Assembly: GCF_001677475.2 (NCBI RefSeq)
Contig: NZ_CP015229.1
Length of the DNA: 64,000 bases
Source of the DNA: Escherichia coli
GTDB lineage: Bacteria; Pseudomonadota; Gammaproteobacteria; Enterobacterales; Enterobacteriaceae
Reading direction: 5' to 3' (one strand)
The notes below the pieces were generated by a model that was not told the DNA's origin, did not search any database, and saw nothing but the letters and a program-made list of their open reading frames with translations. Below are positions 3,264-11,672 of the stretch, in pieces; the first letter of the stretch is position 1, and every line of letters begins with the position of its first letter. Position numbers and translations under genes: made by a program.

Positions 3264-3480
3264 GAATCCTCCCGGCCGGGATAATGTACTGAATAAGATA
3301 AGGAGTGAGCGGAAGTCCCGAAACACAAGGGAAAAAGACAACCACCCGCAAAAAAGAAATACACTCCTCACAGTTGCGCAGGGTGATTACTGTAAGGTAT
3401 TATTCGCAGCGTTAATTAATTGTTCATATTGCTTTTCTTCTTGCCAACCGCTCTTCCCGGGGGCGGCTTTTTTTGCATGT

Positions 3481-3504
3481 AAAAGGCCCCTGCTATGAGG
3501 GGCC
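3481..3504 (-). terminator. Putative intrinsic terminator upstream of esterase gene
   Basis: Minus-strand hairpin GGCCCCT-catagc-AGGGGCC followed by TTTT. Confidence 0.4.
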
Positions 3505-3752
3505 CTAGTATATGCCTAATCTCTGTATACTGCATGGTGCCGGGTGCCTCCCGGTGAGTTCGGCCTGGTGCCACCAAACCCGCGTATTCTCGCTTACGAT
3601 CATCAAAGAGATCATACCATTCACCAGTCGCCCCTCCGCACAGGGGGATTCACCATGCCAGTTTCTTTTAACAAACTCCCCGCAAATCAGACAACTGTCA
3701 ACTGTCTGAATTGTGAGACATTTAAAATTTTCGGGGCATGACTGATACCCGG

Positions 3753-4514: not shown

Positions 4515-4591
4515 TGGCGCGTTGTACTAGATTCGAACCAGTGACCGATTGCTTAGAAGGCAATTGCTCTGTCCGGCTGAGCTAACAACGC
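4515..4591 (-). tRNA. argO: tRNA-Arg (anticodon UCU)
   Basis: 77-nt cloverleaf on minus strand: acceptor GCGTTGT/ACAACGC, anticodon loop CU-UCU-AA, TTCGAAT T-loop, encoded CCA. Confidence 0.8.
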
Positions 4592-4604
4592 AGTGTACAG
4601 ATAA

Positions 4605-4681
4605 TGGACCGCCATCGAGGACTCGAACCCCGCGCAACCAGCTTCGAAGGCTGGCGCTCTATCCCGATGAGCTAATGGCGG
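4605..4681 (-). tRNA. argN: tRNA-Arg (anticodon UCG)
   Basis: 77-nt cloverleaf on minus strand: anticodon stem CCAGC/GCTGG, loop CU-UCG-AA, TTCGAGT T-loop, encoded CCA; acceptor stem begins with C (unusual). Confidence 0.7.
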
Positions 4682-4688
4682 TAGGTGA

Positions 4689-4764
4689 TGGTGGCCCTTG
4701 CTGGATTTGAACCAGCGACCTGGCGATTATGAGTCGCTCGCTCTCACCACTGAGCTAAAGGGCC
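4689..4764 (-). tRNA. ileZ: tRNA-Ile2 type (anticodon CAU)
   Basis: 76-nt cloverleaf GGCCCTTTAGCTCAGTGG...anticodon loop CU-CAU-AA...GGGCCACCA; CAU anticodon could also be Met, Ile2 inferred from Stx-phage ileZ-argN-argO arrangement. Confidence 0.7.
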
Positions 4765-9238: not shown

Positions 9239-9323
9239 GGATGGCGTTAATGGCGAATTGTTGCTGCTGCTTACTTCGGAGGAAGATAGTCTGGTTCATT
9301 ATTCCCTCTCATTGGATTTTCCC

Positions 9324-9348
9324 AACAAAAAAGGAGCCGAAGCTCCTT
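9324..9348 (-). terminator. Intrinsic terminator after Bro-N antirepressor gene
   Basis: Minus-strand hairpin AAGGAGC-ttcg-GCTCCTT followed by TTTTTTG. Confidence 0.4.
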
Positions 9349-9353
9349 TAGTT

Positions 9354-9986
9354 TCAGAATTCAAATTGTCTTGCCCGTAGTTGCGCCAGCATGCTTCTGG
9401 CCCTATGCACCATATAGTTGGCGGGATCAAGTTTTGCTGCTTCGCGGAGCAATGTGTCGCGAGTCCGGTTGGTTATATGACGAGTCTCGTAGGCCAGATC
9501 AAACAGTTTCCCGTAGTAATCAGAGTTCAGTTCTCTCATGACGGGGTATAGCTGTTTACTGAGTTGTTGTGCTTTTTCCATCCAGAGTTGAACGTAGCAG
9601 AGCAGGATGATGTCTTCTGCTGTGAATTGCGGCTGAATATGAGGTTGTGGCGGTATAGCGCTTTTTTCAGCTTCACGGTCCAGAATATCCAATACCCAGC
9701 GACGAAACTCTTTTGCTATTGGAGTTCGAGCAAACATCGCTATTAGGTGAGCGCCGCGTAATGAGAAGATGCGAGTCTCTTGCTTGTCCCCTTTAGGATC
9801 GGTCAATTTGACCGAGGCTGTCATACCGTTTGTGAATTCATCTGCGTGACGGGCATAGATGCGTGTTACCGAGCTTTGATCTGCATATTGTAACGCGCTG
9901 GCTATTTGGGGGGCAGACAACCACAGTAGACCATCTCGTTGAACGGTCTGGAATTGAACATTGTGGAATACAAGTTGAGTGCTCAT
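9354..9986 (-). CDS. Antirepressor-like protein, Bro-N-type N-terminal domain
   Basis: 210-aa ORF; C-terminal ~100 aa homologous to the adjacent paralog (QPQFTAEDIILLCYVQLWMEKAQ...LRARQFEF). Confidence 0.55.
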   Translation of the reverse strand: MSTQLVFHNVQFQTVQRDGLLWLSAPQIASALQYADQSSVTRIYARHADEFTNGMTASVKLTDPKGDKQETRIFSLRGAHLIAMFARTPIAKEFRRWVLDILDREAEKSAIPPQPHIQPQFTAEDIILLCYVQLWMEKAQQLSKQLYPVMRELNSDYYGKLFDLAYETRHITNRTRDTLLREAAKLDPANYMVHRARSMLAQLRARQFEF

Positions 9987-10240
9987 AGTTTTATGTCCTT
10001 TCGATTCGTTCAGATCACCCCGTGTTCAGCAGGGCGGTCGGGTACTTGAACACCGTCGAAAGTTCGGCCCGCATCCTTAGCCTTGCGGCTGTTTTTCGGT
10101 ATACGCGCTACCCGACCATATCTGAAAAATGGACATAAAAAATCCGCATGACTGACGGGCGCGGTTTCCGCTTTCGAAGGTGTGTTCAGCACCATGGAGC
10201 GGAATATATCCCCGCTAATGCGGATTTGTCAAATCTGGCC

Positions 10241-10906
10241 TTAAAACTCGAATTGTCTTGCCCGCAGGCTTTTCAGCATTGGTCTGGCCCGCTGGATAAC
10301 GAAACTTGACTGGTCAAGCCGTGCCGCCTCCCGCAGTAGCGCGTCTCTGTTCTTCGTCACCATGTAGATGGTTTCAAACGCAATGTCATACAGCTTGTTC
10401 GTGTATGAGGAGTTCAGCTCTTTCATAATGGGATACAGGTGTTTGCTGATGTTCTGGGCTTTTTCCATCCAGAGCTGCATGTAGCAAAGGAGGATGATTT
10501 CCTCGGCTGTGAATTGTGGCTGAATCTGCGACTGCTGTTCGGTTTGTATTGTTTTTCCCAGGCTGAAATAGCAGTCTTCCAGTTTTTCGAATACTTCCCA
10601 CGCTCGATCGGTTTCGAGCATTTTTGCATGACGGGCTGCGCCGCGTTCTGTCCAGAGGATGAGGTGCTTTGTACGCGGTGCAACTAAGTTACTTTGAGTA
10701 ACCTTGTTCTTAAATTCCCGCAATTCAGCCCCTTCCAATTTGAAGTAGTGCTTCCCGCAAACAAAACGCTCGGCATTGCGCGTATAGTTCACTTTGATGT
10801 TATTAGTTTCGGTGCCATAAAGTTGTGCCAAAAGCTCGGTGGTAATAACAAGAATCTGGTTATGGGTAATCGGGGAGATGGTTTCAACAGAGATTTGAGT
10901 TGTCAT
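10241..10906 (-). CDS. Antirepressor-like protein, ORF6N-type N-terminal domain
   Basis: N-terminus LAQLYGTETNNIKVNYTRNAERF...KHLILWTERGAARHAKML resembles ORF6N; C-terminus shared with 9354-9986 gene. Confidence 0.55.
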   Translation of the reverse strand: MTTQISVETISPITHNQILVITTELLAQLYGTETNNIKVNYTRNAERFVCGKHYFKLEGAELREFKNKVTQSNLVAPRTKHLILWTERGAARHAKMLETDRAWEVFEKLEDCYFSLGKTIQTEQQSQIQPQFTAEEIILLCYMQLWMEKAQNISKHLYPIMKELNSSYTNKLYDIAFETIYMVTKNRDALLREAARLDQSSFVIQRARPMLKSLRARQFEF

Positions 10907-11064
10907 AATGACGCCCTCTAGTGGTTTCTAAACTATCACCACCGTAAGGTTCCAATCATCGGGTGGTGAGACGCACAGGGTTGGAACTACCGGGAAACCG
11001 ACCGGCGAGCTTTTCAGCTCCCCCATGCGCCCCACCATAATTCAGATGTGCGCGTGCATACGAC

Positions 11065-11089
11065 AATAAAAAACACGCTCGCGGCGTGT
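11065..11089 (-). terminator. Intrinsic terminator upstream of antirepressor gene
   Basis: Minus-strand hairpin ACACGC-cgcga-GCGTGT followed by TTTTTATT. Confidence 0.4.
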
Positions 11090-11173
11090 GTTTGTCGCGG
11101 TCTCTATCCGGGGTTCCAATCCCGACGGCCAACTCGACCGTGCGAAGAATATAATCCCGGATAAGTAATTACG

Positions 11174-11257
11174 TCAACCCCAGCGGCAAATCGAATACTC
11201 CACCAGCGCCACCGCCAGTGCAATTCCTGCCGTTGTGAACGCCTCAGGCCAGGTCAT
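11174..11257 (-). CDS. 27-aa hydrophobic peptide, start overlapping upstream stop
   Basis: ATG overlaps TGA of 11254-11577 gene (ATGA); product MTWPEAFTTAGIALAVALVEYSICRWG; not in ORF track. Confidence 0.25.
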   Translation of the reverse strand: MTWPEAFTTAGIALAVALVEYSICRWG

Positions 11258-11577
11258 CGTAAAACATCCTCCACGCTTATAAGTCCGTTTCGCTCCAGAT
11301 AGTCCATCGCTTTATCCGGTAATTTGCAGCCCGGTTTCGCTTTCCTCAGTTGCCAGGCTAACTGCTTTACCAGCATGGTTAACTCGTCGACCAGACGCTG
11401 ATATCCCACTGGTTTGTATTCATGCAATTTACCAGCTGGCTCTGCTACCAGCGATGCCAGTGCAATTTTGAATAACTCACCCTCTACCCGTGCCATCTCT
11501 GAATTAGGGTGGCATTTCGCAATCGCTATTTTTAATTTAGCTTCTTCGATTAATTGCTCTTTTGTTAATTCAGTCAT
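11254..11577 (-). CDS. Hypothetical phage protein (107 aa)
   Basis: Clean ORF in nin-like region. Confidence 0.5.
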   Translation of the reverse strand: MTELTKEQLIEEAKLKIAIAKCHPNSEMARVEGELFKIALASLVAEPAGKLHEYKPVGYQRLVDELTMLVKQLAWQLRKAKPGCKLPDKAMDYLERNGLISVEDVLR

Positions 11578-11672
11578 TTTTCATTACTGCCCTTTCAGGC
11601 GGACTCCTGATGTTCTGAGGGTACAGAAATCCCTCCGGTTAAGGATTAAATTTTTAACAGTGCTAAATTTAA

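What the first reader, a model, noticed from the sequence alone, without database searches (positions are those of the whole stretch)
10907..11257. Non-coding leader upstream of the antirepressor with repeated GGTTCCAA motifs, and a coupled 27-aa hydrophobic peptide
The ~270-bp non-coding stretch upstream of the ORF6N antirepressor contains GGTTCCAATC twice and its inverted copy (GTTGGAAC) once, plus an intrinsic terminator (11065-11089). These are candidate binding sites for a dedicated regulator of the antirepressor. Just upstream, a 27-aa hydrophobic peptide starts in an ATGA overlap with the stop of the 107-aa gene 11254-11577, suggesting translational coupling of a small membrane peptide.
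Basis: seen in the sequence. Interest (0 to 1): 0.4.

Follow-up and report, generated by a model that had tools for sequence, protein, structure and literature searches.

The report
Antisense-RNA switch controlling a prophage antirepressor
The repeated GGTTCCAATC motifs are the pairing sites of a known phage P1-type antisense RNA switch (C4 RNA plus an IsrK-like leader) that most likely blocks translation of the antirepressor, and the 27-residue peptide just upstream is a separate, conserved small membrane-protein gene.

Summary
GGTTCCAATC occurs exactly twice in 64 kb (10948-10957, 11112-11121). Its complement GTTGGAAC lies between the copies (10980-10987), and the terminator is at 11089-11067.

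The interpretation as protein-binding sites is wrong. On the minus strand Rfam finds an IsrK-like RNA (11141-11068) and a C4 antisense RNA (11042-10959), both above their curated thresholds, behind an invariant sigma-70-type promoter. The motifs are the P1-type sites a1 and a2; the inverted copy is a' in the single-stranded linker of C4. A second trio (b1, b', b2) ends 4 nt before the antirepressor's Shine-Dalgarno sequence.

In 23 distinct related leaders, eight different "a" sequences change together at all three sites, with every cell still paired. Published compensatory mutations in Salmonella Gifsy-1 hit exactly these bases.

A second module with the same design but other pairing sequences (Rfam sRNA-Xcc1) precedes the next antirepressor (9987-10240).

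The 27-aa ORF is a genuine, separate gene. It keeps 27 codons, the ATGA overlap and a hydrophobic core behind several unrelated upstream genes, and its DNA is in 1444 of 5426 complete E. coli genomes. Its function is unknown.

Overall this is a new member of a known kind, of modest interest.

The parts
11148..11177 (-). Sigma-70-type promoter of the leader: -35 TTGACG 11177-11172, 18-nt spacer, -10 TATATT 11153-11148. Predicted transcription start is about 11141.
   Evidence: 10 of 12 consensus matches. TTGAC and TATATT are invariant in 23 distinct related leaders while the spacer varies. The Rfam isrK match starts 7 nt after the -10.
11068..11141 (-). IsrK-like short leader RNA carrying the upstream C4 target sites a1 and b1 and ending in an intrinsic terminator.
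   Evidence: Rfam RF01394 isrK, 54.9 bits against a gathering score of 50. c4-a1b1 (RF03163) overlaps at 23.5 bits, below its threshold. The region is homologous to Gifsy-1 isrK.
11112..11121 (-). Site a1: GAUUGGAACC in the RNA, in the loop of a CGGG/CCCG hairpin.
   Evidence: It pairs with a' at 7 positions; 4 of these change on both sides across 23 leaders and every cell stays paired.
11098..11104 (-). Site b1: GAGACCG, complementary to the b' loop with one G-U pair.
   Evidence: Cognate b'/b1 duplexes average -9.1 kcal/mol against -5.3 for non-cognate pairs.
11067..11089 (-). Intrinsic terminator of the short leader RNA: 6-bp stem, 5-nt loop, TTTTTT.
   Evidence: structure line of the isrK match.
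10959..11042 (-). C4-type antisense RNA. By analogy with P1 the mature RNA would be about 11036-10962. It has a 17-bp closing stem and two hairpins.
   Evidence: Rfam RF01695, 71 bits against 45. The minimum-free-energy fold equals the family structure, -44.9 kcal/mol, z = -5.0. Six closing-stem pairs and five hairpin-1 pairs show compensatory changes. The 5' flank GAAUUAU|GGUGGGGCG is identical to the annotated 5' end of P1 c4.
10994..11001 (-). b': the loop UCGGUUUC of C4 hairpin 2.
   Evidence: unpaired in the fold.
10981..10988 (-). a': the single-stranded linker AGUUCCAA of C4.
10948..10957 (-). Site a2: GAUUGGAACC, 2 nt after the C4 match.
   Evidence: The a':a2 helix has 7 pairs, 4 with changes on both sides, and every cell paired. 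It occupies the same position as annotated a2 in P1.
10923..10928 (-). Site b2: GAAACC. It ends 4 nt before the Shine-Dalgarno GAGGG (10918-10914) of the antirepressor, whose ATG is at 10906.
   Evidence: In relatives b2 abuts or overlaps the Shine-Dalgarno sequence, with the downstream copy at -15 to -32 (mostly -15 to -21) from the start codon.
10241..10906 (-). Antirepressor gene, 221 aa (ORF6N plus P22_AR_C domains): the regulated target.
   Evidence: About 76% nucleotide identity to Gifsy-1 anrP/STM2616 (hit H30).
11174..11257 (-). Conserved 27-aa small hydrophobic protein gene, translationally coupled (ATGA) to the 107-aa gene. It is a separate cassette from the leader.
11254..11577 (-). 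107-aa gene of unknown function (PHROG 660/5117). Its stop codon overlaps the start of the small ORF.
9987..10240 (-). Second, orthogonal module of the same design in front of the Bro-N antirepressor 9354-9986. Coordinates: promoter 10232-10203; a1 10189-10182 and b1 10178-10171; sRNA-Xcc1-type RNA 10117-10028 with b' 10062-10056 and a' 10053-10047; a2 10029-10022; b2 10004-9998, overlapping the Shine-Dalgarno AAGGA.

Best explanation
The 270-bp leader is a P1 immI-type antisense RNA switch fused directly to a lambdoid antirepressor gene.

How it most likely works:
1. A probably constitutive promoter (11177-11148) starts transcription at about 11141.
2. Many transcripts stop at the terminator (11089-11067). 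This gives a roughly 75-nt IsrK-like RNA that displays a1 (GAUUGGAACC) in a hairpin loop, followed by b1.
3. Read-through transcripts contain a tRNA-like C4 RNA (11042-10959). It is probably cut out by RNase P, as in P1.
4. The unpaired linker a' (AGUUCCAA) and loop b' (UCGGUUUC) of C4 pair with a2 (10957-10948) and b2 (10928-10923), just upstream of the Shine-Dalgarno sequence. This keeps ribosomes off the antirepressor mRNA.
5. The upstream copies a1 and b1 bind the same a' and b'. As measured for the Gifsy-1 homologue, excess short leader RNA supplied in trans turns antirepressor translation on.
6. The a and b sequences act as a specificity code. The neighbouring module (9987-10240) uses different a and b sequences and should be orthogonal.

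Shown here: the family matches, the structure, the three-site complementarity and its co-variation, and the geometry shared with P1.
Inferred: RNase P processing, translational repression, and a decoy role for the leader.

The 27-aa ORF is an independent small gene for a single-pass membrane peptide, translated by coupling to the preceding gene. Its function is unknown.
For: - Family matches: Rfam hits above gathering scores for C4 (71 against 45) and isrK (54.9 against 50).
- Fold: the C4 minimum-free-energy structure equals the family consensus, z = -5.0, and leaves a' and b' unpaired.
- Geometry: the annotated P1 locus has a1, b1, c4, a2, b2 in the same order and spacing, and an identical 5' junction sequence.
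- Co-variation: across 23 distinct leaders there are eight "a" specificities. The a1:a' and a':a2 helices are 100% paired with 4 of 7 pairs changed on both sides. For the structure as a whole, none of 500 shuffles reached the observed values on four of five measures (6 of 500 on the fifth), and slid controls paired only 34-45% of cells.
- Cognate against non-cognate duplex energies: a', -9.6 against -2.7 kcal/mol; b'/b1, -9.1 against -5.3; b'/b2, -10.2 against -7.4.
- An unbiased search for three-copy 7-mers recovers a and/or b sites in P1, Gifsy-1, both window modules and 13 of 14 further relatives. At most 3% of shuffles give any such triple.
- Promoter hexamers are invariant.
- Gifsy-1 experiments (PMC4825925): the transcript starts at this promoter and an ~80-nt processed RNA (STnc1160) is detected. 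IsrK supplied in trans raises anrP translation more than 100-fold. By my numbering, the mutated pairs G28/C162 and G31/C159 are a1:a' pairs, and G114/C175 is a C4 closing-stem pair.
- Peptide: it keeps exactly 27 codons and the ATGA overlap behind upstream genes with at least four unrelated C-terminal ends (a DUF551 protein, 933W p77, an Av-05 protein and the 107-aa type). Its pN/pS ratio is 0.22-0.57 while pS reaches 0.66. The ORF is intact, with 27 codons, in 74 of the 79 viral loci that reach past it. The core is hydrophobic and seven residues are invariant. Its DNA is in 1444 of 5426 genomes.
Against: - No expression, processing or repression data exist for this window; everything functional is by homology.
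- P1's icd coupling gene is absent, so the step from C4 binding to loss of Ant must differ.
- b2 is only 6 bp and stops 4 nt short of the Shine-Dalgarno sequence.
- In Gifsy-1, a1 mutations in cis partly derepress (93 and 218 against 4). A pure decoy model for the leader does not predict this, so cis a1:a' pairing or termination control may also contribute.
- Whole-segment duplex energies against shuffled targets are not very discriminating.
- One relative (L026) has a b'/b2 mismatch.
- Peptide: no family, no literature and no translation evidence. The window copy has a charged Glu at position 20, where all other copies examined have an uncharged residue (usually Val).
Confidence: 0.85

Rival explanations
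1. One reading: the three motif copies are DNA operator sites for a dedicated protein regulator of the antirepressor promoter.
For: Three copies of one 8-10-bp sequence, one of them inverted, cluster near a promoter. Co-variation of all three copies would in principle also fit a co-evolving DNA-binding protein.
Against: - All copies lie 20-190 nt downstream of the predicted start site, not at the promoter.
- The inverted copy is the unpaired linker of an RNA with strong structural co-variation.
- The b1 and b2 sites differ (GAGACCG against GAAACC) yet both pair with b' when a G-U pair is allowed, which only makes sense at the RNA level.
- The cassette moves between phages from the -35 hexamer through ant (in the window and some STEC genomes as a tandem of two such cassettes), with no regulator gene attached and with differing upstream neighbours.
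- No LexA-box-like site lies in 9900-11300.
Confidence: 0.03
2. The conserved middle region works mainly as a translated upstream ORF (Gifsy-1 'orf45'). Its translation is coupled to that of the antirepressor, rather than the region acting as a C4 antisense RNA.
For: In Gifsy-1, orf45 was epitope-tagged and detected, and its start-codon and stop mutants lower activation of anrP (PMC4825925). The window has the same ATG (11038) and a 36-codon ORF.
Against: Across 23 leaders the ORF is 14-45 codons long and stops anywhere from -94 to +1 relative to the ant ATG. Only Gifsy-1 has the AUGA overlap. The peptide sequence is not conserved, whereas RNA pairs co-vary. The ATG is fixed because it is part of the C4 closing stem. 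In the window the ORF ends 24 nt before the ant ATG.
Confidence: 0.1
3. The C4-like RNA acts chiefly on transcription, as the CI RNA of phage P4 or the CA RNA of N15 does. Pairing with a1/b1 on nascent RNA enforces termination at 11089-11067, and pairing with a2/b2 causes Rho-dependent polarity. Blocking of the ribosome-binding site would be secondary.
For: a1 and b1 sit immediately 5' of the terminator. The Gifsy-1 authors raise this idea for STnc1160. IsrK in trans raises a transcriptional fusion 8-fold, and a1 mutations in cis derepress. P1 C4 ultimately prevents ant transcription through Rho (my knowledge of Biere, Citron and Schuster 1992, not checked here).
Against: The effect on the translational fusion (139-fold) far exceeds that on the transcriptional fusion (8-fold). 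b2 always abuts or overlaps the Shine-Dalgarno sequence in both module types, which points to the ribosome-binding site as the primary target.
Confidence: 0.25
4. The 27-aa ORF is a chance reading frame in conserved non-coding DNA at the end of the upstream cassette.
For: It is too short for gene callers, is mostly unannotated in RefSeq, matches no curated family, and the sampled close relatives are about 90% identical in DNA.
Against: - Divergent copies (59-81% amino-acid identity) keep exactly 27 codons, the ATGA start, a Shine-Dalgarno sequence and the pattern M-x-W-P-[DE]-A ... G ... R-W.
- Synonymous divergence reaches 0.66 with pN/pS of 0.22-0.57.
- An in-frame 6-nt insertion keeps the frame in L147. 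One further locus (L164) has lost the stop and reads on to 39 aa. Only 4 of 80 viral loci are disrupted.
Confidence: 0.07

Closest known systems
Phage P1/P7 immI region: c4 antisense RNA with target sites a1, b1, a2, b2, controlling icd and ant (Rfam RF01695, RF03163)
   Same: - Same RNA family by covariance model, and the same fold.
- Same order: promoter, a1/b1, terminator-like hairpin, C4, a2 directly after C4, b2 at the ribosome-binding site.
- a' lies in the linker and b' in the hairpin-2 loop.
- The 5' junction sequence is identical.
- The target is an antirepressor operon.
- The a and b sequences differ between elements, as they do between heteroimmune P1 and P7.
   Different: - There is no icd gene; b2 lies directly in front of the antirepressor's own Shine-Dalgarno sequence.
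- The antirepressor is of the ORF6N/P22_AR_C type.
- The host element is an integrated lambdoid prophage, not a plasmid prophage.
- No C1-type operator was identified at the promoter.
- The a and b sequences are new.
Salmonella Gifsy-1 isrK-orf45-anrP locus (Rfam RF01394; Hershko-Shalev et al. 2016, PMC4825925)
   Same: A direct homologue: about 76% nucleotide identity over window 10563-11131. The same promoter, IsrK, terminator, C4 and antirepressor are present. It supplies experimental evidence for the transcript start, read-through, the ~80-nt processed RNA, a1:a' pairing and trans-activation of the antirepressor.
   Different: - Specificities differ: a is UUGGCGU in Gifsy-1 and UUGGAAC here; b is AUCACCG there and GAAACC here.
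- The 'orf45' frame is 36 codons here and does not overlap the ant start.
- The module sits between the replication genes and the nin region rather than after Q.
- It is followed by a second module.
sRNA-Xcc1 family (Rfam RF02221), described from Xanthomonas integron cassettes
   Same: The window's second module (10117-10028) matches at 67.5 bits against 53. Its layout is C4-like: a closing stem, two hairpins, a loop b', a linker a' and a CCGCCC tail.
   Different: It is not placed in the C4 clan by Rfam, and the papers I read treat it as a trans-acting virulence-linked sRNA. Here it has matched a and b sites on both sides and sits in front of an antirepressor.
Phage P4 CI RNA (seqA/seqB/seqC) and N15 CA RNA immunity systems
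   Same: A processed small RNA cut out of the same transcript as its targets, with complementary sites both upstream and downstream. The P4 comparison is made in PMC4825925; the N15 comparison is from my own knowledge.
   Different: Those RNAs act by transcription termination and belong to other sequence families. No Rfam match to them was seen here.
Small hydrophobic phage and bacterial peptides (type I toxins such as Hok, TisB, Ibs; KdpF-like subunits)
   Same: The 27-aa product is of similar size, with one predicted membrane helix.
   Different: - It has no antisense RNA partner; no Rfam family of any kind matched 11170-11260 at E up to 1.
- It has no promoter of its own and starts in an ATGA overlap with the preceding gene.
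- It has no significant family match (KdpF E = 0.024, below the cut-off).

Membership tests
C4 antisense RNA system (P1/P7 immI type; Rfam RF01695 and RF03163) | Covariance-model match at or above the curated gathering score | tested here: met
   C4: 71 bits against 45, full length 1-87. The companion c4-a1b1 model scores only 23.5 against 46.7 here, but 48.1 in the Gifsy-1 homologue.
C4 antisense RNA system (P1/P7 immI type; Rfam RF01695 and RF03163) | Fold: long closing stem, two hairpins, unpaired hairpin-2 loop (b') and unpaired linker (a') | tested here: met
   The minimum-free-energy structure equals the consensus, z = -5.0. Eleven stem pairs show compensatory changes, and every cell is paired in 23 sequences.
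C4 antisense RNA system (P1/P7 immI type; Rfam RF01695 and RF03163) | a' and b' complementary to a2 and b2 downstream at the ribosome-binding site, and to a1 and b1 upstream, in the P1 order and spacing | tested here: met
C4 antisense RNA system (P1/P7 immI type; Rfam RF01695 and RF03163) | The regulated downstream operon encodes an antirepressor | tested here: met
   ORF6N plus P22_AR_C domains; PHROG 377 anti-repressor Ant, E = 1e-79.
C4 antisense RNA system (P1/P7 immI type; Rfam RF01695 and RF03163) | An icd-like gene between C4 and ant, whose translation is the direct target | tested here: not met
   Only 52 nt separate C4 from the ant ATG. The overlapping 23-aa (TTG start) and 36-aa ORFs are not conserved.
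C4 antisense RNA system (P1/P7 immI type; Rfam RF01695 and RF03163) | C4 excised from the precursor by RNase P, and repression of Ant synthesis in vivo | not testable with these tools
   Indirect only: the GAAUUAU|GGUGGGGCG junction is identical to P1's and the 3' tail is ACC. An ~80-nt processed species was seen in Gifsy-1.
IsrK sRNA (Rfam RF01394; Gifsy-1) | Covariance-model match at or above threshold, own promoter, Rho-independent terminator | tested here: met
   54.9 bits against 50; promoter and terminator; hexamers invariant.
IsrK sRNA (Rfam RF01394; Gifsy-1) | Followed by orf45, whose stop overlaps the antirepressor start (AUGA) for translational coupling | tested here: not met
   The window ORF is 36 codons and stops 24 nt before the ATG. 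Only 1 of 23 leaders has the overlap.
IsrK sRNA (Rfam RF01394; Gifsy-1) | Hfq binding, and trans-activation of the antirepressor and of Q | not testable with these tools
   Known only for Gifsy-1.
   The sites lie at +21 to +194 of the transcript. No regulator gene lies within the mobile cassette, whose upstream neighbours differ between phages.
Type I toxin-antitoxin small toxins (Hok/Sok-like), considered for the 27-aa ORF | Small hydrophobic toxin with its own transcript and an overlapping antisense RNA | tested here: not met
   No Rfam family matched 11170-11260 at E up to 1. The start lies in an ATGA overlap with the preceding gene in all nine contexts examined. Toxicity was not tested.

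The most novel reading that the evidence does not exclude
P1 C4, Gifsy-1 IsrK with 'orf45'/STnc1160, and the sRNA-Xcc1 family may all be one class of three-site RNA immunity switch: a leader decoy, a processed antisense RNA and a ribosome-binding-site target.

The evidence does not exclude the following points:
- The published 'orf45' is the C4 RNA. The short IsrK RNA is an anti-antisense decoy carrying a1 and b1.
- The failure of the Gifsy-1 double mutants to restore repression (224 and 327 against 4) arises because a2 was left unchanged.
- The a and b sites form a combinatorial specificity code. At least eight "a" and seven "b" variants are shuffled among E. coli and Salmonella prophages.
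- This lets prophages stack two or three orthogonal antirepressor cassettes in tandem, as in this window.

Separately, the 27-aa M-x-W-P-[DE]-A ... R-W peptide would be an unrecognised small membrane protein carried by about a quarter of E. coli genomes.
Probability: 0.45. Interest if true: 0.55.

Novelty: new member of a known kind. Interest (0 to 1): 0.3.

Why it matters
Antirepressors decide when lambdoid prophages, including Shiga-toxin phages, leave lysogeny, so the element that gates them is relevant to phage induction and to cross-talk between co-resident prophages.

- Reading the motif as RNA pairing sites gives directly testable predictions, chiefly three-way compensatory mutations.
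- It links two literatures that the papers I read treat separately: P1 C4 and Salmonella IsrK.
- It suggests that sRNA-Xcc1-type RNAs next to antirepressors do the same job.
- The a/b code would explain how several antirepressor cassettes can coexist without cross-regulation.
- The small peptide adds one more conserved, mostly unannotated small membrane protein to the E. coli prophage pool.

None of this changes the basic picture of how such switches work.

Tried and rejected
- tRNA or tRNA-like gene. GGTTCCAATC resembles a T-arm, and one-mismatch hits fall in real tRNAs at 4530 and 4704. ARAGORN finds no tRNA in the leader, so this was rejected.
- LexA control, as for the Gifsy antirepressors gfoA and gftA. 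No CTGT-N8-ACAG-like site lies in 9900-11300.
- An icd-like ORF. The 23-aa TTG ORF 10884-10955 starts inside a2, and its TTG is lost in relatives whose a site is AUUAGCAC. Rejected.
- Whole-segment RNA duplex energies against shuffled targets were only weakly discriminating (8-59 of 500 shuffles did as well). I relied on co-variation instead.
- The exact-sequence look-up placed the peptide in clusters named after DUF551 proteins. The full-length members read do not contain the peptide; only a 31-aa fragment annotated as a partial DUF551 protein does. I treat the cluster name as an artefact of clustering short sequences.
- Pfam, NCBIfam, PHROGs and PADLOC give nothing significant for the peptide.
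- A full-text search for the peptide sequence found no paper.
- No complete E. coli genome in the collection carries the window's exact junction of the 27-aa ORF with the leader at 80% coverage or more of 9300-11600.
Full report
**1. Observation**

All genes here are on the minus strand. GGTTCCAATC occurs without mismatch only twice in the 64-kb window, at 10948-10957 and 11112-11121. The inverted 8-mer is at 10980-10987.

An intrinsic-terminator-like site lies at 11089-11073, followed by TTTTTT. The 27-aa ORF 11174-11257 starts in an ATGA overlap with the stop of the 107-aa gene 11254-11577. The downstream gene 10241-10906 carries ORF6N and P22_AR_C domains and matches PHROG 377, anti-repressor Ant. 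The description is accurate.

**2. What the leader is**

A scan against Rfam puts three RNA families on the minus strand:
- isrK at 11141-11068, 54.9 bits against a threshold of 50;
- C4 antisense RNA at 11042-10959, 71 bits against 45;
- sRNA-Xcc1 at 10117-10028, 67.5 bits against 53, in the next intergenic region.

A sigma-70-type promoter (TTGACG, 18 nt, TATATT; 11177-11148) ends 7 nt before the isrK match.

The window C4 folds into the family structure: a 17-bp closing stem and two hairpins, -44.9 kcal/mol, z = -5.0. The hairpin-2 loop UCGGUUUC (11001-10994) and the linker AGUUCCAA (10988-10981) are left unpaired.

The annotated P1 genome shows the reference layout: promoters, a1, b1, c4, a2 3 nt after c4, b2 over the Shine-Dalgarno sequence of icd, then icd and ant.

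A second trio is also present. It consists of b1 GAGACCG (11104-11098), the b' loop, and b2 GAAACC (10928-10923). b2 ends 4 nt before the Shine-Dalgarno GAGGG (10918-10914) of the antirepressor, whose ATG is at 10906.

The sequence around the annotated 5' end of P1 c4 (GAAUUAU|GGUGGGGCG) is identical in the window.

**3. Evidence from relatives**

The module is common in Stx-type and other lambdoid phages and is homologous to Gifsy-1 isrK-anrP. I collected 79 viral loci encoding relatives of the antirepressor and aligned 23 distinct leaders.

- The -35 TTGAC and -10 TATATT are invariant.
- Eight different "a" cores occur: GGAAC, GGCGT, TGCAC, AGCAC, AGGAAC, GGTCT, GGCAT, CGAAC. Each is matched at a1, a' and a2.
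- On the named structure, the a1:a' and a':a2 helices each have 7 pairs, 4 with changes on both sides, and no unpaired cell.
- The C4 stems add 11 compensatory pairs.
- No shuffle reached the observed values on four of five measures (6 of 500 on the fifth). Slid controls pair only 34-45% of cells.

Cognate a' duplexes average -9.6 kcal/mol against -2.7 for non-cognate ones. The b sites behave likewise, though less sharply.

I also ran an unbiased search for a 7-mer whose perfect reverse complement lies once upstream and once downstream. It recovers a and/or b trios, with the same distances to the start codon, in P1, Gifsy-1, both window modules and 13 of 14 further relatives. At most 3% of shuffles give any such trio.

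b1 and b2 in the window differ from each other, yet both pair with b' if one G-U pair is allowed. That argues for RNA-level rather than DNA-level recognition.

**4. Link to published experiments**

The Gifsy-1 study (PMC4825925) never mentions P1 or C4. When I number its transcript from the A of ACGCCAGC, all of its coordinates fit:
- its orf45 AUGs (nt 107 and 119) lie in the C4 5' strand;
- G28/C162 and G31/C159 are a1:a' pairs;
- G114/C175 is a pair in the C4 closing stem;
- its ~80-nt processed species STnc1160 corresponds to C4.

The study shows that the promoter is active and that some transcripts read through the terminator. IsrK supplied in trans raises anrP translation about 139-fold and transcription about 8-fold.

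Its double mutants, which restore a1:a' pairing, do not restore repression (224 and 327 against 4). That is expected if a' must also pair with the unchanged a2. Single a1 mutations in cis partly derepress, which a pure decoy model does not predict. Cis pairing or termination control may therefore also contribute.

**5. Is the middle region a coding ORF?**

The orf45-like frame starts at an ATG fixed by the C4 stem. Across the 23 leaders it is 14-45 codons long and stops anywhere from -94 to +1 relative to the ant ATG. In the window it is 36 codons and ends 24 nt upstream. What is conserved is the RNA, not the peptide.

**6. The second module**

The region 9987-10240 repeats the design with other sequences:
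- promoter 10232-10203 (11 of 12 consensus matches);
- a1 CUGAACAC (10189-10182) and b1 UUCGAAAG (10178-10171);
- an sRNA-Xcc1-type RNA with b' CUUUCGA (10062-10056) and a' GUGUUCA (10053-10047);
- a2 (10029-10022) and b2 UCGAAAG (10004-9998), which overlaps the Shine-Dalgarno AAGGA of the Bro-N antirepressor 9354-9986.

Relatives change b while keeping a, and the reverse. The tandem pair occurs in other STEC genomes at 95% identity up to window position 11178, and some genomes carry three antirepressors in a row.

**7. The 27-aa ORF**

Homology with other genomes breaks at 11174-11178, which is both the ORF's stop codon and the -35 hexamer of the leader promoter. The ORF therefore belongs to the upstream cassette.

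Of the 79 viral loci with relatives of the 107-aa gene that reach past the ORF, 74 keep it intact with 27 codons. The exceptions are three loci with a frameshift, one with a premature stop, one with a lost stop (39 aa) and one with an in-frame two-codon insertion. An eightieth locus ends at its contig edge.

Divergent copies (59-81% amino-acid identity) follow upstream genes with at least four unrelated C-terminal ends: BP-4795 DUF551 ORF5 (with two genes annotated Ea22 that share that ending), 933W p77, an Av-05 protein and the 107-aa type. Every copy has the ATGA overlap, and every copy but one, which carries a stop at codon 3, has an intact 27-codon frame.

The pN/pS ratio is 0.22-0.57, with pS up to 0.66. 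M1, W3, P4, A6, G11, R25 and W26 are invariant, and residues 6-24 are strongly hydrophobic. The DNA is present in 1444 of 5426 complete E. coli genomes.

No curated family or paper covers it. The window copy carries Glu20, where all other copies examined have an uncharged residue (usually Val). The ORF is best read as a real, translationally coupled, single-pass membrane peptide of unknown function.

**8. Verdict**

It is wrong on mechanism, because the sites are RNA-RNA pairing sites of a known C4/IsrK-type antisense switch, not protein operators.

The element is a new member of a known kind. It differs from P1 in lacking icd, in its specificity sequences and in being stacked with an orthogonal Xcc1-type module.

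Interest is modest. The most novel reading left open is that IsrK/orf45, C4 and sRNA-Xcc1 form one class with a combinatorial specificity code.

Noticed in passing
window 9987-10240 (minus strand): A second promoter, leader, antisense RNA and target module sits in front of the Bro-N antirepressor 9354-9986. Rfam calls the RNA sRNA-Xcc1 (67.5 bits), a family not placed in the C4 clan. Yet it has matched a and b trios with P1-like geometry, and b2 overlaps the Shine-Dalgarno sequence. This suggests sRNA-Xcc1-type RNAs next to antirepressors are C4-class regulators.
   Followed up: partly
window 10935-10971 (minus strand): The 3' strand of the C4 closing stem (UCACCACC) can instead pair with the downstream GGUGGUGA, forming a hairpin that presents a2 in its loop. 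The pairing is kept in 97.8% of cells across 23 leaders, but only one pair shows compensatory change. It may be a precursor-specific alternative structure.
   Followed up: partly
window 11172-11177: The TGA stop of the 27-aa ORF is formed by the -35 hexamer TTGACG of the leader promoter. Most relatives end ...CGCTGGGGATAA instead, and a few end GGGGTTGA without the leader. The cassette junction therefore lies at a TTGA microhomology.
   Followed up: partly
window 11155-11164 and 11105-11113 (minus strand): The promoter spacer TTATCCGGGA and the 3' flank of the a1 hairpin, CCCCGGATA, form an imperfect inverted repeat about 45 bp apart. Both are largely conserved in relatives. The first copy is not transcribed, so RNA pairing cannot explain it. 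No co-variation was seen (L021 changes one side only). It may be chance.
   Followed up: no
L026 (IMGVR_UViG_2630968933_000007), leader upstream of ant: A natural recombinant whose b' and b1 (GGUUGAUC / UUCAACC) do not match its b2 (GAAACC), while a1, a' and a2 still match. It is a possible partly derepressed cassette, or evidence that "a" pairing alone suffices.
   Followed up: no
E. coli STEC17-183 NZ_CP075652.1 5054262-5056714 (hit H151): Some STEC genomes carry three antirepressor genes in a row (two ORF6N and one BRO) where the window has two.
   Followed up: no
L172 (Escherichia phage Av-05, KM190144.1 74413-74493): The 27-aa peptide gene (MTWPEAFTTVGVVMAVAFAVYSVCRWG, with ATGA overlap) also occurs in a 121-kb Vequintavirinae phage, outside the lambdoid group.
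   Followed up: no
window 11254-11577: The 107-aa gene is mosaic. Its C-terminal half and the small ORF are about 92% identical in DNA to many E. coli prophages. The N-terminal half is much more divergent, leaving the whole protein only 65-71% identical to most relatives. PHROG hits differ between the two halves.
   Followed up: no
window 3475-3687 and 4515-4764 (minus strand): An STnc100 sRNA match (181.9 bits) and three tRNA genes (Met-CAT, Arg-TCG, Arg-TCT) lie downstream of the nin/Q region, as is typical of Stx-type lambdoid prophages.
   Followed up: no
L198-L207, L211 (viral contigs with Bro-N antirepressor relatives): These antirepressor relatives lack any C4-type leader. They follow a small gene whose product ends ...SINSAIVQRLAKSLRE (ribbon-helix-helix-like), then a hairpin. 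This looks like a different control design, reminiscent of P22 arc/mnt.
   Followed up: no
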